A stretch of DNA of 64,000 bases from IMG/VR virus record IMGVR_UViG_3300009082_000016, positions 108,724-172,723 of that record, one strand, 5' to 3'. The notes under the pieces were generated by a model, which saw only the letters and a program-made list of their open reading frames with translations, made no database searches and was not told where the DNA came from. Positions within the stretch are counted from its first letter, which is position 1, and every line of letters starts with the position of its first letter. This document shows positions 4,137-52,196 of the stretch, in pieces. A program made the translations under genes and the position numbers. This DNA is from a virus.

Positions 4137-4535
4137 CTACTTCTCCGGAAGCTCGAGCCAGCGATGGCAGTGGTTCTCGACCCAGGTCTCAAACAGGTAC
4201 CGTTGTGGATCGTCCACCCCGGGCCAGCCCCACGAGGTGATCTCGGCCAGCCGCTTCTCGAGCGACTGGATCTCGTTCGAGTGCCGGGACATCTCGAGGT
4301 GGAAGAACCGGGTCAGCACCTGCCGCTGACCGTTCTCCTGCATTGAGTCCAACCGCTTCAGGTCGTCCACGATGCCCACGATGTCCCGCCGATGGGCGCG
4401 GATCTGGTGGCGGCACAGCCAGTACTCCAACGCCCGCGGGATCCAATCGGCCATCGTCTGGTCCAGCGGGACACGCCCGGCAGCCTCACGGACCAGCTCA
4501 GCGTAGCGAATCGTCTTCCGTGGCTTCGTGCTCAC
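4137..4535 (-). CDS. hypothetical protein
   Basis: ORF tiles between neighbours. Confidence 0.55.
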   Translation of the reverse strand: MSTKPRKTIRYAELVREAAGRVPLDQTMADWIPRALEYWLCRHQIRAHRRDIVGIVDDLKRLDSMQENGQRQVLTRFFHLEMSRHSNEIQSLEKRLAEITSWGWPGVDDPQRYLFETWVENHCHRWLELPEK

Positions 4536-5359
4536 TTCACCTTCTCCGTTTCCTCCCCCGTCTCCTTTTCCGTCGCCTTCAACCGCTCGCGGGCCAGCTC
4601 GCGCATCCTGTTCGACAGCGCCCCCTGGTCCGGCGTCGACACCTCATAGGGCAGCCAGTCGCGCTCGATGCGCTTGCGGAACGACGACCACGTCTCCCGC
4701 GTGTACCAGTTGCGCCCCAGCGCCCAGATGCCACCCGGCAGCGTGGTCGTCGGCGTGCTGCCCAGATCGAGGCTGCCGGCGATGCCAAGCACCACATCGA
4801 TCGACGCGGCACGCATCTTCACCAGCGTGGTGTCGAGGCAGTGGATCTCCGGGTCGTGGGCTTCGCACTGCTCGGGCGTCGCCCGCACGTAGTACGCCCG
4901 GCACGACGTCGGGCGGGCCTCGTAGATCGAGCACTTCCCATCCTGGAGGAACAGGCAGGGCACCCGCCGCTCGTACCACTCGGTGTGCGACACCTTCGCC
5001 TGCTCGTCGTGCCGTTGCCGGCACTGCTCCAGGAAGTCGCGCTTGAGCAGGTTGTGGTAGTCCAGGTACGCCGTGGCGATCAGCGCGTCGAGCGGGGAGA
5101 CCACCACGGGGATGGTGCAGCAGCTGCCCGTGTGGCAGTCCTTGCAGGCCGGCTTGATGCCCTCCTTCTCGGCCGCTTCGAGAATCTTCGCGACCAGCTC
5201 ATCGACGCCCTCGAGCATCACGATCGCCATGGACATCATCTTCCGGAAGGTGAGCGGCCCGCTCTTCCGGACTTCCTGGACCCCCTTCCGGACGGTCTTG
5301 TCCATCCGCTCGAGCTCCTCCTTGGCAATCGCGTCGAGAGTTGCTTGCTCCAATCCCAT
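4532..5359 (-). CDS. YkgJ-family cysteine-cluster (Zn/Fe-chelating) protein
   Basis: CKDCHTGSCC and CLFLQDGKCSIYEARPTSCRAY. Confidence 0.85.
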   Translation of the reverse strand: MGLEQATLDAIAKEELERMDKTVRKGVQEVRKSGPLTFRKMMSMAIVMLEGVDELVAKILEAAEKEGIKPACKDCHTGSCCTIPVVVSPLDALIATAYLDYHNLLKRDFLEQCRQRHDEQAKVSHTEWYERRVPCLFLQDGKCSIYEARPTSCRAYYVRATPEQCEAHDPEIHCLDTTLVKMRAASIDVVLGIAGSLDLGSTPTTTLPGGIWALGRNWYTRETWSSFRKRIERDWLPYEVSTPDQGALSNRMRELARERLKATEKETGEETEKVK

Positions 5360-5405
5360 CCCGAAAACCTCCTCTTGGTCTGCTCCACCCGCGGATACCA
5401 TGGCT

Positions 5406-5978
5406 CTACCACTTCTTCCGGGGATCGGCCTTGAGGCCCGTCATCCCGAAGATTCCGTGGGCCTGCACCGTTTGCGGACACCAGCGGGTACTGCCCGGTG
5501 CCCCAATCGAATCGATCTGCTGGGTGTGGAGCACCCAATGCTGTTCCAGACGCTCGGCGGACACCGTAGTTCTGCATCGCACACAGCAACACGGCCGCAT
5601 CAAGGTAACCGGCGTCAACAGCTGATGCAACCCGGCGTTGTAGAACTCCTGACTGGAGTGCCGAAGTTCCTTGTCGATCCCGTCCGACAGGCCCTTTCTT
5701 GCCGCCGCCAACGACGCCTCCCCGTCGTCTCTCCCCCCCGTGCGAGCTCCGGAAGTCAGCCCACTTCTTCTTGCCGCCCAGACGGACAGCAGCTGCAGTC
5801 TTCCTACCGCTCGACGCGCAACGACGGCATAGCGACCAGCCCTGCTAAACCTGGTCGCCTCGCGACAGCACCACTCCACGGCCGACACGGACCCGTAAAC
5901 CGTTTCCACCATCGTGTCCGCCGACAGCTGCTGGGTCACCTGCACCAGTCCGTCCTCCCTGGCTTCCTCCGGAGTCAT
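5406..5978 (-). CDS. hypothetical protein
   Basis: ORF fills the gap; C-terminal Cys cluster. Confidence 0.4.
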   Translation of the reverse strand: MTPEEAREDGLVQVTQQLSADTMVETVYGSVSAVEWCCREATRFSRAGRYAVVARRAVGRLQLLSVWAARRSGLTSGARTGGRDDGEASLAAARKGLSDGIDKELRHSSQEFYNAGLHQLLTPVTLMRPCCCVRCRTTVSAERLEQHWVLHTQQIDSIGAPGSTRWCPQTVQAHGIFGMTGLKADPRKKW

Positions 5979-5982
5979 GCTC

Positions 5983-6345
5983 TCACCAGGGCTTCCCGGA
6001 GCGGCACACCTTCCTTCTATCCCACGGGCGCATGCCGGGCAAGAACTCGGCCCAGGCCACCCGCGGCGGCGCCACGTGCTTCATGTCGAATGGCGCCTTG
6101 CCGATGCGCCGGTCGACCTGCCGCAGGATGCGGGCGATCGTCTCGCGGCTGACGCCCACCATCCGCGCCACCCGACTCGCCGTCAAGCCGAACATGTAGA
6201 CGGTGCGGAACACGAACTGCTCCCGCGGCGGCATCGAACAGAGCGCGGCGCAGAGCCCCACCTGGAACTCGAGGGGCATGTTCTGGACCCACGGGGCGAG
6301 GGAACCACGCCGGCCGCGCTGCTTGGCGCCAAACATGTTCGTCAT
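5983..6345 (-). CDS. sigma-70 region-4-like HTH protein
   Basis: ALCSMPPREQFVF...GLTASRVARMVGVSRETIARIL. Confidence 0.7.
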   Translation of the reverse strand: MTNMFGAKQRGRRGSLAPWVQNMPLEFQVGLCAALCSMPPREQFVFRTVYMFGLTASRVARMVGVSRETIARILRQVDRRIGKAPFDMKHVAPPRVAWAEFLPGMRPWDRRKVCRSGKPW

Positions 6346-6707
6346 CCTCCACCTGCCAGCTTCTTCCCCTCTTCGCAGTCGCAGAGGATGTCGTTGGAGA
6401 TGTGCCCCGTGTCGAGGCACTTCTCGCACTCCATGATCAGGAACTCCTTCCGGCCCCTCACGTCGGCGAGGTAGTCGGTGACCGCGTCCAGGAAGTTGGT
6501 CAGCCCCTCCATGCAGTCGTCATCGTCCTTGCTGAACTGGATCAGCTCCGGCCCCGGCGTCCCGTACTCCACGCCCCGGGCCATCTGGGCGCGGCGGAAC
6601 CGGCCCGATAGCTCCAGCAGGCAGAGCCGCTGCTTCTTCCAGAGCTCAGGGTCGAGCTTCTTGAGAATGTCCTCGATGGTCGCGAATCCAAGATCTCCAC
6701 AAGCCAT
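6342..6707 (-). CDS. hypothetical protein with C-terminal Zn knuckle
   Basis: AAAGGAG RBS; CEKCLDTG...CDC. Confidence 0.65.
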   Translation of the reverse strand: MACGDLGFATIEDILKKLDPELWKKQRLCLLELSGRFRRAQMARGVEYGTPGPELIQFSKDDDDCMEGLTNFLDAVTDYLADVRGRKEFLIMECEKCLDTGHISNDILCDCEEGKKLAGGG

Positions 6708-6725
6708 GTGCTTCTCCTTTCCTAT

Positions 6726-6871
6726 GGTGGCTTCCAGCAGGGACCGGCCGAAGCCGATCCCTGCGACCTGGTGGCGTCAGTCAGAGGCTAGTCCGATTCC
6801 TGTCGCAGCTAGCCGTAACGATCCAGGGCATGCCGGAGTCCCACGTCAGCGGGCCCCTGCTGGAAACCACC
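6726..6871 (-). ncRNA. putative guide-like structured RNA, unit C (third transcribed)
   Basis: 17-bp terminal stem 6726-6742/6855-6871 (one G.U on minus strand); conserved 5' hairpin; C(UUCG)G 3' hairpin; 73-nt pentamer-periodic core. Confidence 0.8.
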
Positions 6872-7018
6872 TTCTGGATCACAGGAGGGACCGGCCGAAG
6901 CCGATCCCGCATCCGAGACGCTAACCTTGCTAGCACGGCCACGCCTAAACGTGACTAGTGGAGCCCGTACCAGCCTTGCCGGAGTCCCACGTCAGCGGGC
7001 CCCTCCTGTGATCCAGAA
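6872..7018 (-). ncRNA. putative guide-like structured RNA, unit B
   Basis: Perfect 18-bp terminal stem 6872-6889/7001-7018; same conserved hairpins; 72-nt periodic core. Confidence 0.8.
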
Positions 7019-7169
7019 CGTCCCCTCCCCGAGGGACCGGCCGAGGTCTAAACCACGGTCGGTCCCGCGGGCTTGCCGGAACTAGGCGGGCCACACCTGC
7101 CCTTGCCTTGTTGAGGCCTTCCCCGAGATGCCGGAGTCCCGCATCAGCGGGCCCCTCGGGGAGGGGACG
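7019..7169 (-). ncRNA. putative guide-like structured RNA, unit A (first transcribed)
   Basis: Perfect 17-bp terminal stem 7019-7035/7153-7169; conserved 5' hairpin; longer 3' hairpin; 66-nt periodic core; starts 5 nt after the upstream stop codon. Confidence 0.8.
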
Positions 7170-7174
7170 TCGAT

Positions 7175-7807
7175 CTACGCGGCCTCTTCCAGGATCCTGT
7201 TGAGCCGGTTCCGGATCCGCGTGAGCGCGGTGCGAAGCACGGGCAGCACCGTTCCCAGGAGCTCGGCCGCCCTGCGGTTGTTCTCGTACTTGTTGAGCAG
7301 GCCCTCGATGTCGTCGATGATCTCCCGGAGAAGGAGGGTGCCGGTGTTCCGCCTGCGGAGCCGTTCCACCGTGTGCTGGTAGGACTTCTTGCTCGTGGCC
7401 GAGGTCCGAACCGACACATTGCCGGTGACGACAATCTGGACCTTCTTGATCTTCACGACCCAGGCATAGCCCCGGGCCATGAGCCGCGCTTCCTGCTTCC
7501 ACTGCTTCTCGGCCGCCTCGCTCCGGTTGGCCGTGAAGCCGACGGAGAGGTTCTCCTTCACCCACGCGGGGACGGGCTCACCATCGAATCGGCCGTCGCG
7601 CCAGGCCGCCACGATGTGGTCGGTCTCGACGGATCCGTTCGCCTGGGTGTTCAACCAGTCGATCGCCCTTCCGTAGAGCATAGCCTGCGCGTCGGTGTAC
7701 ACCGGCGTCCGTGACTGGTAACCGACGAGCGTCGCCCCTTCCGGCAGCTGGCCCGGCTGAACGACGTCCTCCTCGTAGCTGATGATCTCCTTCTTCTCCT
7801 GGGCCAT
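7175..7807 (-). CDS. partner protein of the RAMP-like gene
   Basis: TGATG-coupled to the RAMP-like gene; helical motif VETDHIVAAWRD...SEAAEKQWKQEARLMAR. Confidence 0.7.
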   Translation of the reverse strand: MAQEKKEIISYEEDVVQPGQLPEGATLVGYQSRTPVYTDAQAMLYGRAIDWLNTQANGSVETDHIVAAWRDGRFDGEPVPAWVKENLSVGFTANRSEAAEKQWKQEARLMARGYAWVVKIKKVQIVVTGNVSVRTSATSKKSYQHTVERLRRRNTGTLLLREIIDDIEGLLNKYENNRRAAELLGTVLPVLRTALTRIRNRLNRILEEAA

Positions 7808-8475
7808 CAGCCTTCCTTCACCAGGCGCTTCGCTCCGGCGATCGTGAAAACGCCGTTGGCCTCGTGGCATCCCCGTCCCGGGCGCCCCTGACCCAACCCG
7901 ATGAACTGGCCGGCATGCTGCACGATGCTCGCCAGGAGATCGAGGCTGACGACGTCCGGCTTGTGGATGACCGTCACCCTCGTGTACCACGGCGGATTGA
8001 AGTGTGGACGGTACACGGTGGCGGGGAAGTGGGTGCGCGTCTCCTCCTTCTTGTCCTTGTTCCCACGGAACACGATGTCCTTGCTGCACATCTCGATGTC
8101 CTCACAGATGATCGGGTACACCCCACTCGGCACGCGAAACAGCCGGATGTTCTCGGCCGGAAGGTGGAGGATCTCCGTCGCCGCCTGGACGAAGCATCCA
8201 TGGAACGCACCCGAAGGGATCCCGAACGGGTGCTTCTTGTCCCCCGTCAGATGCAGGCAGCCCTTCGCCTCATCCTTCGGGTCCAGCTTGGCCGGCTTGG
8301 GAGGGTAGGGCTCTCCCTTGCCGCGCTCGCTCATCGCACGCATGAAATCGGCCAGGGCTGCCCGCGGCTTCCCCGGAATGAAAGGGGCCTCTCCCACGAG
8401 ATCGAAGGCGGTATACCAGAGCTCGAGGGGCTTCAACTTGATCTCCACCTCTTCGGCCTGCATCTTCTTCGTCAT
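7807..8475 (-). CDS. stand-alone Cas7/RAMP-like protein
   Basis: N-terminal FDLVGEAPFI strand; FGIPSGAFHGCF (RAMP IPxSxxKG-like); YRPHF-x3-W; C-terminal Gly-rich loop GQFIGLGQGRPG...NGVFTI. Confidence 0.8.
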   Translation of the reverse strand: MTKKMQAEEVEIKLKPLELWYTAFDLVGEAPFIPGKPRAALADFMRAMSERGKGEPYPPKPAKLDPKDEAKGCLHLTGDKKHPFGIPSGAFHGCFVQAATEILHLPAENIRLFRVPSGVYPIICEDIEMCSKDIVFRGNKDKKEETRTHFPATVYRPHFNPPWYTRVTVIHKPDVVSLDLLASIVQHAGQFIGLGQGRPGRGCHEANGVFTIAGAKRLVKEG

Positions 8476-8483
8476 GTCCTCTC

Positions 8484-8768
8484 CTAGTCTTCGAGGTTGG
8501 CGATCCAGACGAGGCCATCCTCGAAGTGCTGCTCCCTCGCGATGCGGCAGATCTCCTGCCACACATCCTCGGGAATGCTGTCACGGTCCGACCCCTCTTC
8601 GTGGTCGAACGTAATGAACACGTCGCTGTACTCGCCTGGGACTTCGCCCTTCCGGTGCCACGTCGCGATCGGCTTGCCGGAGTTGAGCCAGTCCATGAAG
8701 TCCTTGCGCTGGTACCACTCGGAGGCGTCGATGCGGAGCACCCGCCCGACATACTTGAACACGGCCAT
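8484..8768 (-). CDS. hypothetical protein
   Basis: TGATG coupling; ATWH-x5-PGEYSDVF motif. Confidence 0.65.
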   Translation of the reverse strand: MAVFKYVGRVLRIDASEWYQRKDFMDWLNSGKPIATWHRKGEVPGEYSDVFITFDHEEGSDRDSIPEDVWQEICRIAREQHFEDGLVWIANLED

Positions 8769-8986
8769 CAGCGATCCTTCCCGTAGTACTCGAGGCACTC
8801 CTTGCACCGCAGGAACCCGGCATCGTCATCCTCCGGGTCGCCCTCGAGCACCGCGCCTCCCTGATCGATCTGGAAGGCACCGCAGACCGTGTCCTGGTCG
8901 TTGGACCCCTCGAACTCGCAGTCCTTGCCGCCGGCGCCGCAGTGCTTCCCCTCGAACCGGATGGTCCGCTTGGTCTCAATCTCCAT
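8768..8986 (-). CDS. small Cys-rich protein
   Basis: HC..C..C..RCKEC pattern; GAGGAGG RBS. Confidence 0.6.
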   Translation of the reverse strand: MEIETKRTIRFEGKHCGAGGKDCEFEGSNDQDTVCGAFQIDQGGAVLEGDPEDDDAGFLRCKECLEYYGKDR

Positions 8987-9354
8987 TAGCCCTCCTCATG
9001 CCACACCACCTTGATGCGGTATGTGGTCCCCTCAGGGGTCTCTGCCTCCAGGAAGGAAGGCCACCCATCGAGGGGCACGGACTCGAAAATGAGCCGGCCG
9101 TCCAAGCTGATCTCGAAGGAGCCCCAGTAGTTGTGCTGACCCGAGCAGAGTTTGACGGACACGAAGGCCCCATCGTCCAACCTGACCGCCGGAGCCTCCC
9201 GGGTATCATCGTAGTACGCCCGGGTGCTCCCGTCCCTGGGGGCCGGACCCTTCCGCACCCCCTTCAGGTTCTCCGGGAACACGATGTCGATCAGCTTCTT
9301 CCAGGAACTCGGCAGGACAATCTCACCCCGAACGGGCTGGGTCTTCTTGCCCAT
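8986..9354 (-). CDS. hypothetical protein
   Basis: Coupled ORF with GGAGG RBS. Confidence 0.65.
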   Translation of the reverse strand: MGKKTQPVRGEIVLPSSWKKLIDIVFPENLKGVRKGPAPRDGSTRAYYDDTREAPAVRLDDGAFVSVKLCSGQHNYWGSFEISLDGRLIFESVPLDGWPSFLEAETPEGTTYRIKVVWHEEG

Positions 9355-25696: not shown

Positions 25697-26545
25697 CTAC
25701 TCCGCGGAGGCACCCTTCTTCGGGCGCATGCCGCGGACGCGGGCCTTGGCCGCCTCGATCTCCTTCTGCAGATCCTTGGGCACGTCCTTCTTCTGGATCG
25801 CCACCGCGATCCCGTCCGACATGCCCTTGTGGTACTCGCTCTCATGCACCTTCGGAGCGAGCACATCGAGCATCAGGGCCAGCGGCTTGTAGCCGAGCAC
25901 CTTGAAGGCGCCGGCCTCCTTGCTGGCCTTCTTCTTGGCGCCCTTGTCGCCCTTCGCCGCCTCCAGCGTCTCGAGGTACCGCTTCAGGGCGGACTCGAGC
26001 CTGGCCTCCGTCCAGCCGTCGGAGATCCACTGCTCGGCCGTCGAGAAGGGGAACTTCCCCTCGTCGATGGCGCGGAGCATGGATTCCGGGGCCTTGTTGC
26101 GGACGGCCAGCACGCGACTGGCCCGGGACGCCGTGATGCCGCACCGCTTGGCGACCTCGCCGAGCTTGTGCCCGCGTCCGACCATCATGCGGAGGTAGTC
26201 CGCCTCGTCGAGCGGGCCGTGCTCGTGCCGCTGGTCGTTCGCGATGAAGCTCATCACGAGGGCGTCGGTCTCGTTGCCCTCGTACAACTTGACCTCGACC
26301 TCCGCGAACGCCTTCGGGTCGCTCTCGCGGATGGCCTGGATGGCCTCGAAGCGATGCCGGCCGTCGACGACGTCGTACGTCGTCGTGTCCTTCCCGCCCA
26401 CCCGGCTGCGGACGGGACGAACGAGCAGCGGGACCTGCAACCCTTCGGTCGCGATGGACTTCGACAGCCCGACGATGTCGCCCTGGGTGCGGCGGTAGCT
26501 GGGCAGTCGATCGACGTGCAACGACTCGAACGGAACCTTTGCCAT
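25697..26545 (-). CDS. ParB/Srx-domain protein with HTH
   Basis: LSKSIATEGLQVPLLVR...YDVVDGRHRFEA...IANDQRH; GEVAKRCGITASRASRVL. Confidence 0.85.
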   Translation of the reverse strand: MAKVPFESLHVDRLPSYRRTQGDIVGLSKSIATEGLQVPLLVRPVRSRVGGKDTTTYDVVDGRHRFEAIQAIRESDPKAFAEVEVKLYEGNETDALVMSFIANDQRHEHGPLDEADYLRMMVGRGHKLGEVAKRCGITASRASRVLAVRNKAPESMLRAIDEGKFPFSTAEQWISDGWTEARLESALKRYLETLEAAKGDKGAKKKASKEAGAFKVLGYKPLALMLDVLAPKVHESEYHKGMSDGIAVAIQKKDVPKDLQKEIEAAKARVRGMRPKKGASAE

Positions 26546-27885
26546 CAGTCCTCCTCCTTCCGACTCGTTTTGTCTGCATATTCGGAGATGCCGCTCTTGT
26601 CGGTCATCCTCCGAGCCTTCTTGCCGCGGTTGGCGATTTTCAGAAGCTCGACCTCAACCGCGGCGGTGTTCTTGAGCAACATGAGCTCGCGGTAGTCCCC
26701 GAACGGCGGCGGATTGATCAGCAGCCCACCCAGCGGGAACTCCCGGGACTTCGCGACGTGGATCAGCAACTTCGTGCTGTCGTCATCGTCGATGTAGATG
26801 TGGGTGCGGTACAGGATGTCCGCCCTCTGGGAGACGACGTCGCTTCCGTACAGGTCGTCTCCGCCTCCACCACCGCTGCTCTGCTCGGACTTCTTCCGGC
26901 TGGCATGCAGCGTGGCGACCACGGGGATCTTGTGCTCCCGCGACATCTGCTGGAGCAGCTTGATGCCCTTGGTCAGCGACTTCCGGTCCTCCGGGTCGAT
27001 CTTCGGGTCCATCTCGAGGTAGGCGCTGTCGATGAACAACGCGTCCGGCTTCGCCAGATCGACCTTCCGCTGGACCTCCGACCCCTTGATGGAGTCGGGA
27101 CCGACCAGGTGCAGGTTGGCATACTCGCCGGCGCCGCCCATCGAGATCAGCTCCATGACCTGGAGCAGGGCGCTGCGCTGGTCGTCGTTCATGTTGTCCT
27201 GGCGCACCCGCTCGTAGGGCACGCCCGCGATGAGCGACGCCAGCCGCTGGCAGATGATGTTGAGCGGCAGCTCGCAGGACACGAGCATCAGGTTCAGGTC
27301 GGTCCGCTCCTTCATCAGGTGGGCGATGATCGACAGCAGCGCCCAGGTCTTCATCGTCCCCGGGCGCCCGTAGATGATGCTGACCTCCGAGCCCATCAGG
27401 CCCAGCGAGGCTGTGGTCAACGAGTCCCACGGGAACGGCAGACCCTTTGGGACGGCACGACCTTTCTCCAGCCGCTCGGCCAGCTCCCGCATCGGAAGCC
27501 TCACCGGCACGACCGACTTGTCCCCGTGCCCGATGAGCGCCTCCCGCATCTGCTCGTAGGCCTTGCGCCCCACGTTGTGCGGGTCCTTCCGAAGGTCGAG
27601 CGGGTCGGGCAACGCCTGCTCCAACTCCCGCGCCAGGGAGAGCTTGATGATCTCCTCGGCCAGCGTCTTCACCCCCAAACCCGTAGGGATGTCGATCCAC
27701 TCGGTGAACCCCGACCGCTCCATGAAGATGTCCTTGGTCGGGATGTCCCCGTTGTGCGACTCGGCGAAGCGGAGCAGGAACTCGTAACCGGCCCGCTCCC
27801 GCGGGTTGCCGAAGTGCTCCGGGTCGAGCCCCAACTTCTTCGCCGTTTCCAGATCCCGCTGCTCGACGATGGCAGTCAGGACCAT
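26545..27885 (-). CDS. DnaB-like replicative helicase
   Basis: Walker A YGRPGTMKT; VSCEL; Walker B LFIDSAYL; HKIPVVATLHASR; YGSDVVSQRAD; VAKSRE. Confidence 0.88.
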   Translation of the reverse strand: MVLTAIVEQRDLETAKKLGLDPEHFGNPRERAGYEFLLRFAESHNGDIPTKDIFMERSGFTEWIDIPTGLGVKTLAEEIIKLSLARELEQALPDPLDLRKDPHNVGRKAYEQMREALIGHGDKSVVPVRLPMRELAERLEKGRAVPKGLPFPWDSLTTASLGLMGSEVSIIYGRPGTMKTWALLSIIAHLMKERTDLNLMLVSCELPLNIICQRLASLIAGVPYERVRQDNMNDDQRSALLQVMELISMGGAGEYANLHLVGPDSIKGSEVQRKVDLAKPDALFIDSAYLEMDPKIDPEDRKSLTKGIKLLQQMSREHKIPVVATLHASRKKSEQSSGGGGGDDLYGSDVVSQRADILYRTHIYIDDDDSTKLLIHVAKSREFPLGGLLINPPPFGDYRELMLLKNTAAVEVELLKIANRGKKARRMTDKSGISEYADKTSRKEED

Positions 27886-30503: not shown

Positions 30504-30947
30504 CTACTTCACCCAGATCATGCGCTTCTTCGTCGCGCTGACCGGGATCGTCTGCTGCAGCCGGTAGCCCTTCCGCAGCATCACCTTCTCCTGGACGTGC
30601 ATGCCGTAGTGGCCGGACAGCTTCTTCAGGAACCTGCCGTCGTACGACATCCCGACCTTGCTGGCGCTCGGGTCGATGTGCTGGTCGTACTCCGACACCC
30701 GCATCTCGTAGCTGCCGTCCGGCATCCGCTCGAACCCGATGTCGTTCGAACCGACACCGACGTGCTCCTTGCGGACGATGATGTTGGCCTTCTGCACGCG
30801 GCGGTCACCGCGGTAGCCGCGCAGGTTCTCGGCCTGCTCGTGGACCTCGATGTGCTTCCGGTCGAAACCCACGTCCACGAGCGCCTTGACCAGGCTCTCC
30901 TCCTCCGCCGAAACGAAGGAGGTCTGCATCTTGTGGTACTCGCTCAT
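30504..30947 (-). CDS. DUF1257 (Ycf35)-like protein
   Basis: MSEY..MQT...LVKALVDVGF...LRGYRGD...NDIGF...SEYD. Confidence 0.8.
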   Translation of the reverse strand: MSEYHKMQTSFVSAEEESLVKALVDVGFDRKHIEVHEQAENLRGYRGDRRVQKANIIVRKEHVGVGSNDIGFERMPDGSYEMRVSEYDQHIDPSASKVGMSYDGRFLKKLSGHYGMHVQEKVMLRKGYRLQQTIPVSATKKRMIWVK

Positions 30948-32587
30948 GCCTCTGCCACTCCTCCGCCGCCGCCCAGGTCCATCAACCGACCGACCTGTTC
31001 GTACGACGTCGCCCCGTCCTGGGGGCCCTGGTACAGACCGGGATACGACGCCGAGCACCAGCAGCCCTTGGCCGCCGCACGCATCGCGTCGATCTCCATC
31101 ATGCGGGAAATGCCCGTGGGCACCATGCCCATCGCGGCCGCATCGACCAGCGTGAGACCGCGGTCCTGCGCCTTGCGGCAGCAGTTGCGGATGTCCGCCC
31201 CGCTCCAGCGGGTATCCTCCGGCAACGGCTGCGGGGCCAGCCCGTGCGCCTGCATCTGCTTCTGCCAGATGACGGCCTTCTCCTCGGCCGACGGCAGGTC
31301 GACGTAGTACTTGCCCTCGGAGCTGAACCGGCGGTCCATCTCCGCGGGAATGTTTGCCTCGCGGTTGCTGTCGCCGATGAACACCGGGTCGTCGCCGATC
31401 GCGGCGAGAATCTTCATCACCATGGCGGACCGCTCTTCGGACACGCCGACGAAGCGGTTCATCATGCCGCCGACGCGGACGACCAGGAACAGCACGCCCA
31501 GCTTGTTGCCCAGGGCGCGGATGATGTGCGTCTTGCCGGTGCCGGGCGGGCCCTGCAGCCGGTAGCCGCGCACCTTCTTGTTCTCCATGAGCTCGAGCAG
31601 GTCGGCGATGATGTGGTCCGTGATGCCGGTGTTGTCGCCGCCGCCGGCGCCCATCATCTGCTTGTCGATCTCGGGGAACTGGGCGATGTAACCGACCCGG
31701 CGCTTCGACTTCCCGAGCGAGTCGAACTCGGCGATCAGCTGGGTGATACCGCCCAGGTCGGAGATCAGTTCCTTGCCGTCGCGGTAGACCTCGATGCCCG
31801 CGGCCTCCTTGATCCACTGGATCTTGCGGACCCAGAGGCGGCCGATCTCGATGCCCGTCGGCGTGAGCGCCATGGCGACCACCTGGTCGATGATCTTCCC
31901 GGGCAGGGCGCGGCACGCGTTCACGGCGTGCCACATCTGGTCATCGGTCAGCTCCGGCGCCGCCGGCTTGCCGGCCTTCTTGAGCCCGTACTGCAGGTCG
32001 TTGAACCGGTCCTGGATGATGCCCTTGATCTCCTCCGGACCGGGCAGCGGCTCATCAATCACCGAGATCTCGTTGACCTCGGGAGGGAAGGCCGGGAACA
32101 CCGGCGAGAGCAGCACGACGCTGCACCCCTGCGCCTTCAGCTGGCTGCTGATCAGCTGCAGGGCCTGCACGGTGTCGTTCGCGGCGTTCGGCTGCTCGAC
32201 GCCCAGCTGCCGGTGCATGTTGAGCATGAACAGGACGCCGCGCTTCGGCAGCTTCAACGCCCCGAACAGGGCGGAAACAGGGTTCACGAACTGGACCGGG
32301 TCGGGGAAGATCTTCTTCACCGCCTGCGACCAGGCGCCGTTGTGCTTCGCGAGATCCGGCTCTGCGGAAACGAAAGCGGTCACGCCGCGCAGGGAGTCCC
32401 ACACGGCGATGGGGGTGTCGGCGCTGACGCCCGACTTCGCCGGGAGTCCGGCGCGGAACTCCAGGAGCTTCCGCACGACCTTGTCCTGGGTCGTGAACGG
32501 ACAGGGGCACGACACCGCGATGACCGGCGTCGAAACGGCGTGGGCCCGCACGACCTCGGCGCCCACGTCGAGAACCGTCGTGTTCAC
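30944..32587 (-). CDS. Ycf46-like AAA+ ATPase with permuted motif order
   Basis: DLGG; GPPGTGKT; FVGVSE; PAEMDRRF; VDLP; WSGADIRNCC. Confidence 0.85.
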   Translation of the reverse strand: MNTTVLDVGAEVVRAHAVSTPVIAVSCPCPFTTQDKVVRKLLEFRAGLPAKSGVSADTPIAVWDSLRGVTAFVSAEPDLAKHNGAWSQAVKKIFPDPVQFVNPVSALFGALKLPKRGVLFMLNMHRQLGVEQPNAANDTVQALQLISSQLKAQGCSVVLLSPVFPAFPPEVNEISVIDEPLPGPEEIKGIIQDRFNDLQYGLKKAGKPAAPELTDDQMWHAVNACRALPGKIIDQVVAMALTPTGIEIGRLWVRKIQWIKEAAGIEVYRDGKELISDLGGITQLIAEFDSLGKSKRRVGYIAQFPEIDKQMMGAGGGDNTGITDHIIADLLELMENKKVRGYRLQGPPGTGKTHIIRALGNKLGVLFLVVRVGGMMNRFVGVSEERSAMVMKILAAIGDDPVFIGDSNREANIPAEMDRRFSSEGKYYVDLPSAEEKAVIWQKQMQAHGLAPQPLPEDTRWSGADIRNCCRKAQDRGLTLVDAAAMGMVPTGISRMMEIDAMRAAAKGCWCSASYPGLYQGPQDGATSYEQVGRLMDLGGGGGVAEA

Positions 32588-50015: not shown

Positions 50016-52196
50016 CTAGAAGCGACCGATCACGGCCTCCAAGGTGGAGCCGGTGGTGGGCGTGAAGTCGAACTTCACCGTGTCGGCAGCGTCGTTCATG
50101 TAGTACGTGCCCTGTCCACCACCAGTGCTGGCCGTCCGGAGCAGGCGCTGACCGTTGTAGTAGATGGCCAAGGACCCGCTGAACAGGGAGTCGTAGCCGA
50201 TCTGGGCCGGAACCACGTCGAGGTCCCACGTCACGGTGGCCGCGGGCCAGCTGGTCACCGACACCTCCTCGAACTTCGTGATGTTGACGGACCACACCTC
50301 GGTGTCCGCCTTGTACGTGTACTGGGCGCCGTTGCCCCAGAACACGTTCACCAGCGTGAGAGCGCCGAAGGACGCGCTGACGGTGATCTGGTCCCCGTCG
50401 TCCGGCTGCTGGAAGCTCCAGTTGGTTCCGTCGTACCACCCGATCTCCTTCGCATGGCCGGAGAAGGTCCCGAGAGCCGTGGGGGCGATCATGGCCCGGA
50501 GACCGGTCGGGGGCTTGCCCGCTCCGGCCGTGCTGTACAGCTTCGTCCACGTTCCGCCCCCGATGGACCGGTACTGGTAGACGTCCCCGTCGGTGTAGCT
50601 GCCACCCCAGTTGTCGACGATGTAGCAGTAGCCGTTGAGGGGGTTCGACGGGACGCTGCCACCCTGATCGGCGTCCGTGGTCAGCAGAACGATGTGAACC
50701 GGCGGGTGCCACGGGAACGTCTCGTCGACGTTCACGCCGGCGGCGTTCACCTTGATGTAGTTGCCCGGCTTGACCTCCAGCGACGTACCGTCGATGGTGA
50801 GGCCGTCGGCGTACTTCACGTACACGCCGTTCGAGTCGATCTCGAGGCCGCCCTCGTTCTTCACGAGGACCTTGAGTCCGGCGTACGCCCCGGACACCTC
50901 GGCGATCTCCAAGCCACCATCGGTCTGCAGGAGGGGGGAGGCGGTCCACGTCGCGCCGGCGTAGACGTACTCGATCCCCGTACCGTACGAGGACGAGATG
51001 ATGACCCCATCGCCCGACGACGGCACGACCGCGATCCAGTAGCTCGGGTCGTTGGTGTTGCTCGTGGTGACGGTCATGATCTGCTTCTGGTACGGAGCGA
51101 ACTCGTCGGCGGCGTTCGGGTGGACCACGAAACGGGTCCCATAGGCCGCGTAGCCACCGCTGCCCGGCACCAGCACGGACCAAGTGGTCCCCGTCCAGAT
51201 GACGAAGTCCCCGGCGTTGACCGCCACACCGCCCCACGTACCGTTGGCCGTGGCGAGGTAGGTGACTCCCGTCACGGGGGTACCCGGCGCCGTGGCCACG
51301 GCGTCGTAGACACGCATCGCCGAGACGGGCTGCTTCGACCGGTTGTAGACGCCGGCCGCATTGACACCGATGCCGGAACCTTCGAGGGTGTCGACGGTCA
51401 CGCCGGTGTTCGCCACCACGATGCCGTCCCCGGCCAGCACCATGAGAGGGCCAGTCTCCAGGGCGTGGTCGTTGAACTTGAGGCCGGGGTACCCGTACGT
51501 TCCGGTCGCCAGCTTGATCCCGATGCCGCCCACCGTGACCTGAATGCCGTACGCGGTGTTGGGCTCCGCGGAGATCTCGGACCCCGTGATGTCGATGCCG
51601 TCCCCCGCCGTGTAGATGCCGACGCCGGCGAACTGGATCCACTTGGTCGTATCGTCGTAGACGTACGCCCTGTTCTCGTACCAGCCCCCGTCGCCGTTGA
51701 TGAGAACGGCATCGCCGTCTTTGACATCGGTGATGAAGACCCAAGCGTTGGTACTGGCGTTGTAGACGGCGAAGTCGTTGGCGTAGGAGGCGAAGCTCCC
51801 GGCGGGGAAGGCACTGACGAGCACCCGAGTGCCGTTCGGCGGCTCTCCACCGGAGTTCGACACGATGACCTGCCACGCAGTCCCCTGCCACTCGATGATG
51901 TCCCCGTCGTTGTAGCCGACACCCCAGTTGTCGACGACGTAGGCCTCCCCGGATCCTCCGGGCGTGGGCGGACTTCCCCCACCGTCGGTGTCATCCACCA
52001 TGTTGAAGACCTTGACGGGCTCCTTCCACGTCACGCCGTACGCCGCGATGTCATCGACGTACTTCTTGTGGACGATGTCCGTCTCGTTGGAGAGGGAATG
52101 GGCCGCCGTGTACCCGATGACCGCATCGAGCTCCGCGATCTTCGCGGAGGTTACGGCCGCGTCGGCGAGTTGGTGTGTTCGGATCTGTACGGACAT
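50016..52196 (-). CDS. fibre-like protein with three DUF2793-like repeats
   Basis: Repeats of YxVDNWG...GD...W.GT.W...G.F....W.F; KKYVDD. Confidence 0.6.
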   Translation of the reverse strand: MSVQIRTHQLADAAVTSAKIAELDAVIGYTAAHSLSNETDIVHKKYVDDIAAYGVTWKEPVKVFNMVDDTDGGGSPPTPGGSGEAYVVDNWGVGYNDGDIIEWQGTAWQVIVSNSGGEPPNGTRVLVSAFPAGSFASYANDFAVYNASTNAWVFITDVKDGDAVLINGDGGWYENRAYVYDDTTKWIQFAGVGIYTAGDGIDITGSEISAEPNTAYGIQVTVGGIGIKLATGTYGYPGLKFNDHALETGPLMVLAGDGIVVANTGVTVDTLEGSGIGVNAAGVYNRSKQPVSAMRVYDAVATAPGTPVTGVTYLATANGTWGGVAVNAGDFVIWTGTTWSVLVPGSGGYAAYGTRFVVHPNAADEFAPYQKQIMTVTTSNTNDPSYWIAVVPSSGDGVIISSSYGTGIEYVYAGATWTASPLLQTDGGLEIAEVSGAYAGLKVLVKNEGGLEIDSNGVYVKYADGLTIDGTSLEVKPGNYIKVNAAGVNVDETFPWHPPVHIVLLTTDADQGGSVPSNPLNGYCYIVDNWGGSYTDGDVYQYRSIGGGTWTKLYSTAGAGKPPTGLRAMIAPTALGTFSGHAKEIGWYDGTNWSFQQPDDGDQITVSASFGALTLVNVFWGNGAQYTYKADTEVWSVNITKFEEVSVTSWPAATVTWDLDVVPAQIGYDSLFSGSLAIYYNGQRLLRTASTGGGQGTYYMNDAADTVKFDFTPTTGSTLEAVIGRF

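What the first reader, a model, noticed from the sequence alone, without database searches (positions are those of the whole stretch)
6726..7169. Each array unit is closed by its own unique 17-18-bp stem, with strand-specific RNA signatures
Seen: the terminal arms differ completely between units (GGTGGCTTCCAGCAGGG, TTCTGGATCACAGGAGGG, CGTCCCCTCCCCGAGGG) yet each matches its own partner, so structure is conserved without sequence conservation. Units abut with zero spacer. Inside are a constant 5' hairpin CCCGC-UGAY-GYGGG (G.U in B and C, G-C in A) and a 3' hairpin GGGAUCGGC-UUCG-GCCGGUCCC (extended variant in A). These imperfect pairs are G.U wobbles on the minus strand but A.C mismatches on the plus strand, and the tetraloop is canonical C(UUCG)G, supporting a minus-strand RNA. 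Inference: unique stems prevent cross-pairing and recombination between units and may be RNase III-type processing sites that replace Cas6.
Basis: partly seen in the sequence, partly recalled or inferred. Interest (0 to 1): 0.8.

Follow-up and report, generated by a model that had tools for sequence, protein, structure and literature searches.

The report
Stem-closed guide RNAs of phage VIPR
The three abutting ~147-base units are guide RNAs (vrRNAs) of a phage VIPR system, a CRISPR relative first described in 2026. Each is enclosed by its own unique 20-bp RNA helix, a packaging not described for VIPR, which most likely marks where a double-strand-specific RNase cuts the guides out of a longer transcript.

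Summary
Window 6726-7169 holds three units (146, 147 and 151 nt) with no spacer between them. Each is closed by its own arm pair. Eleven of 18 closing pairs show compensatory double changes and 100% of cells are paired. G.U wobbles, gene direction and a pentamer rhythm all point to a minus-strand RNA.

The system is not unknown. The gene directly upstream (7810-8475) is a Vipr protein: a profile of its family hits PDB 36pp 'SUSP1 Vipr protein' at E 6e-17, and its model has a Cas7-like fold. The unit cores are 13-14 degenerate GGY-NN pentamers in a fixed frame, which is the hallmark of vrRNAs (bioRxiv 10.64898/2026.04.26.720920). This scan has already found VIPR loci on other DNA.

What looks new is the packaging. 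I found no unit-spanning unique helices in SUSP2, Cy-LDV1 or three related viral contigs, and the words 'stem' and 'RNase' never occur in connection with vrRNA in the three VIPR preprints.

The helices run 20-21 bp without interruption. A rod form of 25-26 bp is nearly isoenergetic with the best fold. There are no promoters, terminators or ribozymes between units. Host RNase III processing is therefore the best reading, but it is untested. The evidence comes from one genome and three units, with no relatives and no targets found.

The parts
7019..7169 (-). vrRNA unit 1 (151 nt). 5' arm 7153-7169; invariant 5' hairpin 7133-7155; guide core of 13 GGY-NN pentamers 7067-7132; extended 3' hairpin 7033-7066; 3' arm 7019-7035.
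6872..7018 (-). vrRNA unit 2 (147 nt). 5' arm 7001-7018; 5' hairpin 6981-7003; guide core of 14 pentamers 6909-6980; 3' C(UUCG)G hairpin 6887-6908; 3' arm 6872-6889.
6726..6871 (-). vrRNA unit 3 (146 nt). 5' arm 6855-6871; 5' hairpin 6835-6857; guide core of about 14 pentamers 6762-6834 (the last five are off-consensus); 3' C(UUCG)G hairpin 6740-6761; 3' arm 6726-6742, with one G.U in the unique part.
7807..8475 (-). vipr gene (222 aa), a RAMP/Cas7-like guide-binding protein.
   Evidence: Family profile vs PDB 36pp_D 'SUSP1 Vipr protein' E 6.2e-17. A profile built without this protein matches it at E 8e-39 and SUSP2 Vipr at 1.4e-22. AF2 pLDDT 92.7. Foldseek top hits are Cmr4/Csm3/type VII Cas7, E 3e-6.
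7175..7807 (-). Accessory gene in the vap position (210 aa). Its ATG overlaps the vipr stop, and its own stop lies 5 nt before unit 1. It is an orphan protein.
   Evidence: no Pfam, PHROG or PADLOC match and no homologue; not related to the vap of L183/L184/L187.
6708..6725 (-). 18-nt linker between the end of unit 3 and the ATG of the next gene. It carries an AAGGAG ribosome-binding site, so the array sits inside a polycistronic transcript.
   Evidence: no promoter- or terminator-like site in 5800-9200.
6342..6707 (-). Downstream 121-aa Cys-rich ORF, co-directional with the array. Whether it belongs to the system is unknown.

Best explanation
The three units are the guide-RNA (vrRNA) genes of a phage VIPR system, lying downstream of vipr (7810-8475) and an accessory gene (7178-7807). 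They are transcribed on the minus strand as part of one long transcript. Each unit has four parts: a unit-specific closing helix, an invariant 5' hairpin, a single-stranded guide of 13-14 degenerate GGY-NN pentamers, and an invariant 3' hairpin that corresponds to the vrRNA 'tail'. The closing helix is a maturation and insulation device. It makes each unit fold on its own, because only cognate arms pair. It also presents about two turns of dsRNA exactly at the unit borders, which a host dsRNA-specific endonuclease (RNase III) most likely cuts. Cutting would free the three vrRNAs and separate the upstream and downstream mRNAs. Afterwards the conserved segments can refold into the two hairpins that cap the guide, and Vipr protomers coat the pentamer tract. 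Shown here: the helices, their covariation, the strand, VIPR membership and the pentamer code. Inferred: cleavage, the enzyme and the order of events.
For: Vipr identity. Pentamer code: it sits in a fixed frame right after ACUCC in all three units, scoring 81 against 57.9+-3.1 in shuffles (0/5000); G1 30/41, G2 22/41, Y3 29/41, with N4/N5 even. The same scan finds the arrays next to vipr in SUSP2, Cy-LDV1, L184, L185 and L187. Closing helices: 100% paired, with 11 compensatory pairs; 20-21 bp uninterrupted on RNA. A rod form of 25-26 bp lies within 0.6-2.8 kcal/mol of the MFE. All the excess structure lies in the flanks and none in the guides. No spacer, promoter, terminator or Rfam ribozyme lies between units, so a trans-acting nuclease is needed. 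In the published SUSP1 structures about 12 Vipr protomers coat the repeat tract as a helical filament. My inference from that is that a helix tying the two ends together cannot persist in the mature particle.
Against: There are no RNA-end data. The host is unknown, so the presence of RNase III is assumed, and the phage itself encodes no RNase III or dsRBD. The evidence is one genome with three paralogous units; no second locus with this architecture was found. The inner GGG:CCC pairs and the conserved hairpins are invariant, so covariation cannot tell the rod form from the hairpin form. No target was found for any guide. The pentamers are more degenerate than the published GGY consensus.
Confidence: 0.55

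Rival explanations
1. Insulation and protection only. The closing helices make each unit fold independently and shield its ends from exonucleases and RNase E/J. The cuts are made elsewhere by other host RNases, for example at the junction phosphodiester or in the single-stranded joints, not by a dsRNA-specific enzyme.
For: Cognate-only pairing. The MFE keeps 14 bp of closing helix plus two hairpins, which is a stable compact fold. Other VIPR arrays are processed without long helices.
Against: The units abut with zero unpaired nucleotides between helices, and the sequence is GC-rich, so there is little single-stranded AU-rich RNA for RNase E-type cuts. A helix joining both ends must still be removed before a filament can form.
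Confidence: 0.2
2. Protein-guided processing. Vipr, which is a RAMP like Cas6, or the orphan accessory protein recognises the invariant 5' and/or 3' hairpin and cuts next to it. The closing helix only positions the hairpins.
For: The hairpins are 100% identical in sequence while the arms are free to vary, as expected for protein-recognised handles. Vipr has a RAMP fold. The accessory protein has no assigned function.
Against: No nuclease motif or family was detected in either protein. The published Vipr is described as a guide-coating subunit, and the papers mention no nuclease activity. This reading does not explain why 17-21 bp of unit-specific helix is maintained by compensatory change.
Confidence: 0.15
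3. A regulatory RNA structure. The stack of stable helices modulates read-through, stability or translation of the flanking genes, as phage T7 intercistronic RNase III hairpins do, and guide release is secondary.
For: The array lies 5 nt after the accessory gene's stop and 18 nt before the next ATG. The fold is very stable, -286 kcal/mol over 511 nt.
Against: The pentamer code and the adjacent vipr gene show that the units are guides. Three different guide cores are not needed for a stabiliser.
Confidence: 0.05
4. A DNA-level element, in which inverted repeats flank mobile or recombining cassettes or form cruciforms.
For: Perfect 17-18-bp inverted repeats exist on the DNA.
Against: The imperfect pairs are G.U on the minus strand but A.C on the plus strand, and unit 3's helix breaks after 5 bp when read as plus strand. 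The repeats lie exactly at the borders of RNA guide units on the gene strand. No recombinase lies next to them.
Confidence: 0.03

Closest known systems
Type II VIPR of Escherichia phage SUSP1/SUSP2 (Vipr + Vap1 + vrRNAs; bioRxiv 10.64898/2026.04.26.720920 and 10.64898/2026.04.26.720927; PDB 36pp)
   Same: A phage-encoded small RAMP protein followed by a coupled accessory gene and a three-unit vrRNA array downstream on the same strand. Guides are tandem GGY-NN pentamers (9-16 per guide) followed by an invariant structured 3' tail.
   Different: SUSP2 vrRNAs are not enclosed by unit-specific helices. Between units lies a conserved local hairpin of about 19 bp and AT-rich spacers, and the tail is a pseudoknot (paper text). 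In this window each unit also has an invariant 5' hairpin, the pentamers are more degenerate, the accessory protein is unrelated, and Vipr is only distantly related (single-sequence phmmer does not reach 36pp).
Staggered and compact vrRNA arrays (fig. S18 of the discovery preprint; seen here in L183, L184, L185 and L187)
   Same: These loci carry the closest detectable Vipr relatives of this protein (E 1e-10 to 1e-4). Their arrays are head-to-tail with no spacers.
   Different: Their units are separated only by a short GGCAG-type motif, and the array is no more structured than shuffled sequence (L187 z +0.09; sequences). They have no closing helices and no 5'/3' hairpins.
Hammerhead-ribozyme-interspersed vrRNA arrays (types I and V, fig. 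S19 of the discovery preprint)
   Same: A built-in RNA device at unit borders that would release individual guides from one transcript.
   Different: No hammerhead or other Rfam ribozyme matches here, even at E<=10. The device here is a plain double helix that needs a trans-acting nuclease.
RNase III processing stems, as in bacterial pre-rRNA 16S/23S stems, phage T7 intercistronic sites and tracrRNA:crRNA duplexes of type II CRISPR (established knowledge)
   Same: The 5' and 3' flanks of a functional RNA pair into two turns or more of dsRNA at the exact borders of the unit to be released. They sit inside a polycistronic transcript and rely on a host enzyme.
   Different: Cleavage has not been shown here. 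The host and its RNase III specificity are unknown. The inner part of the helix can refold into two local hairpins.
CRISPR arrays processed by Cas6
   Same: A multi-guide transcript next to a RAMP-family gene. Conserved hairpins flank variable guide segments.
   Different: There are no identical direct repeats alternating with contiguous spacers, and no cas1/cas2 or Cas6. The guide information is non-contiguous, carried in the NN of each pentamer. The border elements are unique rather than repeated.

Membership tests
VIPR system | Vipr protein: a small (~20 kDa) RAMP with RRM core, G-loop and thumb, homologous to SUSP1 Vipr | tested here: met
   Profile of 32 family members vs PDB 36pp_D, E 6.2e-17. 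A profile built without this protein matches it at 8e-39 and SUSP2 Vipr at 1.4e-22. Conserved G-rich loop GxGxxRP...GxF. AF2 pLDDT 92.7 and Foldseek hits to Cas7 (Cmr4/Csm3) at E 3e-6. The link to 36pp runs through the family profile; single-sequence phmmer does not reach it.
VIPR system | vrRNA made of 9-16 tandem GGY-NN (YNNGG) pentamers with hypervariable NN | tested here: met
   13-14 pentamers per unit, in the same frame relative to the 5' hairpin in all three units. Score 81 vs 57.9+-3.1 (0/5000 shuffles). G1 73%, G2 54%, Y3 71%, N4/N5 even. More degenerate than the canonical consensus.
VIPR system | Invariant structured 3' tail after the repeat tract | tested here: met
   An invariant GCCGGUCCC-containing hairpin follows each core. 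It is supported by a one-sided U.G to C-G change and by an extended paired insertion in unit 1. A SUSP1-type pseudoknot was not looked for.
VIPR system | Adjacent vap accessory gene | tested here: inconclusive
   A translationally coupled 210-aa ORF occupies the vap position. It matches no family and is not related to the vap of L183/L184/L187 or to SUSP2 vap1.
VIPR system | Vipr-vrRNA ribonucleoprotein that binds DNA by the 1-nt-skip rule | not testable with these tools
   Exact 1-nt-skip patterns of 10-11 repeats from each guide found nothing in IMG/VR. The best match in the phage's own genome covers 64-69% of NN, below the published 80% threshold.
RNase III substrate | About two helical turns (>=20 bp) of near-perfect dsRNA | tested here: met
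   20/21/20 uninterrupted bp, and 25-26 bp with one C/C mismatch in a conformer 0.6-2.8 kcal/mol above the MFE.
RNase III substrate | Staggered double-strand cleavage that depends on rnc | not testable with these tools
   No RNA data are available and the host is unknown. The phage has no RNase III or dsRBD gene of its own.
Ribozyme-interspersed vrRNA array | A hammerhead (or other self-cleaving) motif between guides | tested here: not met
   cmscan of 6000-8000 at E<=10 and of the whole window at gathering score found no ribozyme family.
CRISPR array | Identical direct repeats alternating with contiguous unique spacers, with cas1/cas2/Cas6 | tested here: not met
   Tandem Repeats Finder found no array. 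The border arms are unique. No Cas or defence family appears in the neighbours.

The most novel reading that the evidence does not exclude
This would be a distinct class of VIPR array. Each guide is made as a closed 'capsule' whose unit-specific helix is an obligatory host RNase III site. In addition, the nearly isoenergetic rod and two-hairpin forms act as a switch. The rod hides the conserved handles in the precursor. Cleavage lets them refold into the 5' and 3' caps that nucleate and bound the Vipr filament. Guide biogenesis would then depend on a host enzyme, in parallel with tracrRNA/RNase III in type II CRISPR.
Probability: 0.2. Interest if true: 0.6.

Novelty: new variant of a known kind. 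Interest (0 to 1): 0.45.

Why it matters
VIPR was described only in 2026. The three preprints in the library searched do not say how vrRNAs are cut out of their arrays, apart from ribozyme-interspersed and 'staggered' cases. This locus offers a clean, testable third solution: unit-specific double helices at every border. It points to a host dsRNA nuclease as a biogenesis factor. If confirmed, it would add to the parallels between VIPR and CRISPR guide maturation. It would also give a modular design for expressing several guides from one transcript without cross-pairing. The interest is limited because the system itself is already known and the evidence is a single genome without RNA data.

Tried and rejected
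- **Rfam:** nothing relevant in the region at E<=10 or in the whole window at gathering score. The only weak hits were chance matches to the UUCG hairpin. ARAGORN found no tRNA or tRNA-like gene.
- **Retron, Y RNA, pRNA, ToxI-like and integron attC ideas:** considered early. They were dropped once the Vipr hit and the pentamer code were found. I did not search for a reverse transcriptase or an integrase.
- **Close relatives of the RNA:** the exact 23-mer of the 5' hairpin is absent from IMG/VR. The 19-mer gave 57 metagenome hits and 120 or more genome hits. All are single chance matches, lacking the GGGG prefix, the pentamer rhythm and the 3' hairpin. blastn against phage genomes found nothing. 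The scan's own index holds no look-alike.
- **Relatives of Vipr and the accessory protein:** the word-index search found only the proteins themselves. Single-protein queries gave L184-L187. L186 is AT-rich and has no GGY tract.
The other contigs that carry the identical Vipr could therefore not be read.
- **Single-sequence AF2 model** of Vipr was useless (pLDDT 37.5). The alignment-based model was good.
- **An apparent motif shared** between the accessory protein and the vap of related loci was not supported by BLASTP or HMM.
- **Target searches** gave nothing.
- **No covariance model was built**, because no sequence collection that a model could search held relatives.

Full report
**What is there**

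The window is the last 64 kb of a 172,723-bp IMG/VR phage record with direct terminal repeats. It is 65.7% G+C, and nearly all its high-GC3 ORFs, taken here as the likely genes, lie on the minus strand.

The 467-nt gap between the stop of a 210-aa ORF (7175) and the ATG of the next gene (6707) holds three units that abut with no spacer. They are 7019-7169, 6872-7018 and 6726-6871, in minus-strand 5'-to-3' order. Only 5 nt separate the upstream stop from unit 1. Eighteen nt, including an AAGGAG ribosome-binding site, separate unit 3 from the next ATG. No sigma-70-like promoter or intrinsic terminator pattern occurs in 5800-9200. The array therefore appears to sit inside a polycistronic transcript.

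**The closing stems are real**

Each unit begins and ends with arms of 17, 18 and 17 nt that are complementary within the unit.
- Read as minus-strand RNA from the very ends inward, the helices run 20, 21 and 20 uninterrupted base pairs, with 1, 1 and 2 G.U pairs. Read as plus strand they run 17, 18 and only 5, because the wobbles become A.C mismatches.
- On the alignment of the three units, all 67 pair cells are standard pairs. Eleven of the 18 closing pairs changed on both sides. Shuffled controls gave 3.6+-1.6 (0 of 500 reached 11), and slid-partner controls gave 1-4.
- Cognate arms pair 14/14 in their variable part, and non-cognate arms pair 4-8/14.
- The inner AGGG/CCCU is shared by all units, so 'completely different' is a slight overstatement.
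- The 5' hairpin has G.U in two units and G-C in unit 1. The 3' C(UUCG)G hairpin has U.G in two units and C-G plus a paired extension in unit 1.
- The array as a whole is much more stable than shuffles (z -7.15), but the variable cores alone are not (z -0.5, -1.35, -0.5). The structure lies in the flanks.

**What it is**

Rfam has nothing at E<=10, and ARAGORN finds no tRNA. The gene context gave the answer.

The ORF 7810-8475 (222 aa) has 55 distant relatives of about 200 aa in a full HMMER search. A profile of 32 of them hits PDB 36pp_D, 'SUSP1 Vipr protein', at E 6.2e-17. A profile built without the window's protein still matches it over its full length (E 8e-39), and it also matches the SUSP2 Vipr (1.4e-22). 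With the family alignment, AlphaFold2 gives pLDDT 92.7. Foldseek places the model among Cas7-family RAMPs (Cmr4, Csm3, type VII Cas7; E 3e-6, TM about 0.5).

VIPR (Viral Interference Programmable Repeat) systems were described in 2026 (bioRxiv 10.64898/2026.04.26.720920). A phage-encoded Vipr protein coats a vrRNA made of 9-16 GGY-NN pentamers followed by an invariant 3' tail. The complex reads DNA through the NN dinucleotides with a one-nucleotide skip.

The cores of the three units fit this description.
- They hold 13-14 pentamers in one and the same frame, starting right after the conserved ACUCC.
- The periodicity score is 81 against 57.9+-3.1 in 5000 dinucleotide shuffles, each scored in its best frame.
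- Position 1 is G in 30/41 pentamers, position 2 is G in 22/41, position 3 is a pyrimidine in 29/41, and positions 4-5 are even.
- The same scan picks out the arrays next to vipr in SUSP2, Cy-LDV1 and three viral contigs.
- In the whole phage genome the conserved hairpin motifs occur only in these three units.

The finding is therefore the guide array of a VIPR locus. This scan has already met VIPR loci on other DNA (AI notes, not used as evidence).

**What is unusual**

In SUSP2 (type II) the vrRNAs are followed by their tail and by a conserved local hairpin of about 19 bp. Nothing unit-specific spans a guide.

In the loci of the nearest Vipr relatives I could fetch (L183, L184, L185, L187), guides follow each other separated by a short GGCAG-type motif. 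In L187, the one such array I folded, the sequence is no more structured than shuffled sequence (z +0.09).

The discovery preprint names type II arrays, staggered arrays, hammerhead-interspersed arrays and single guides. The words 'stem' and 'RNase' never occur in connection with vrRNA in the main texts of the three VIPR preprints or in the discovery preprint's supplement.

The accessory protein here is an orphan and is unrelated to the vap of those loci. Unit-spanning, unit-specific closing helices plus an invariant 5' hairpin thus look like an undescribed array architecture. I could not see the preprints' figures or data tables, and only one genome shows it.

**How it most likely works**

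With no spacer, promoter, terminator or ribozyme between units, the guides must be released from a precursor by a trans-acting nuclease. In the published SUSP1 structures, about 12 Vipr protomers coat the repeat tract as a helical filament. From that I infer that a helix tying the two ends of the guide together cannot persist in the mature particle.

The helices are 20-21 bp. The arms also continue into the conserved segments as a 26-27-nt inverted repeat. This gives a rod of 25-26 bp with one C/C mismatch, only 0.6-2.8 kcal/mol above the MFE fold that has two local hairpins. That is the size and placement of classical RNase III sites, such as pre-rRNA stems, T7 intercistronic sites and tracrRNA:crRNA duplexes (established knowledge).

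The phage has no RNase III or dsRBD gene, so a host enzyme would be used. I put about 0.55 on closing helices acting as processing and insulation devices cut by RNase III.

The rivals are:
- insulation only, with other RNases making the cuts (0.2);
- Vipr- or accessory-protein-guided cleavage at the invariant hairpins (0.15);
- a mainly regulatory intercistronic structure (0.05);
- a DNA-level element (0.03), which the G.U versus A.C asymmetry argues against.

**Limits**

There are no RNA-end data and no second locus with this architecture, and the host is unknown. No targets were found: exact 1-nt-skip patterns were absent from IMG/VR, and the best match in the phage's own genome covers 64-69% of NN.

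**Verdict**

The system is a known kind (VIPR), and the stem-closed packaging is a new variant worth a simple rnc-dependence experiment.

Noticed in passing
window 5983-6429 and 6342-6707 (minus strand): The two genes after the array are a 121-aa Cys-rich protein (C-terminal CxxC...CxC) and a protein with a sigma-70 region 4/HTH domain (PF04545, E 2.8e-7). The listed ORFs overlap by 88 nt, so the HTH gene probably starts later. Either could be a further DNA-binding accessory of the VIPR locus.
   Followed up: partly
window 4532-5401 (minus strand): A 289-aa protein with a CxxCxxCC putative zinc/iron-chelating domain (PF03692, E 1e-5).
   Followed up: no
L182 (Escherichia phage SUSP2) 3283-3320 and 1772-1810: The same conserved hairpin (CATCACTTAA...TTAAGTGATG, about 19 bp when extended) follows vrRNAs in both SUSP2 intergenic regions. 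It could be a terminator or a processing site of the type II arrays.
   Followed up: partly
L187 2000-2400 and 2900-3030; L185 690-920; L184 4040-4170; L183 3110-3310 and 3930-4030: Viral contigs and Cyanophage Cy-LDV1 with Vipr relatives carry compact GGY-NN arrays whose guides are separated by GGCAG(TT/GC) motifs. These loci share a vap family with a PLHxxFEW(N/D)D motif, which the window's accessory protein lacks.
   Followed up: partly
genome G000:C1 about 51,817-51,876 (outside the window), minus strand: The only other place in the 172.7-kb genome that reaches the pentamer score threshold (21/27). It lacks the hairpin motifs and is probably chance.
   Followed up: no
window 1-64000: Nearly all high-GC3 ORFs of the 64-kb window lie on the minus strand. 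Most have no Pfam or PHROG match; the exceptions include a DnaB-like helicase (26545-27885), an AAA ATPase (30944-32587) and a DUF2793 protein (50016-52196). There are no tRNAs and no Rfam families. The phage is very distant from anything in the phage genome collection; the best DnaB hit is 21% identical, to a Bacillus phage.
   Followed up: partly
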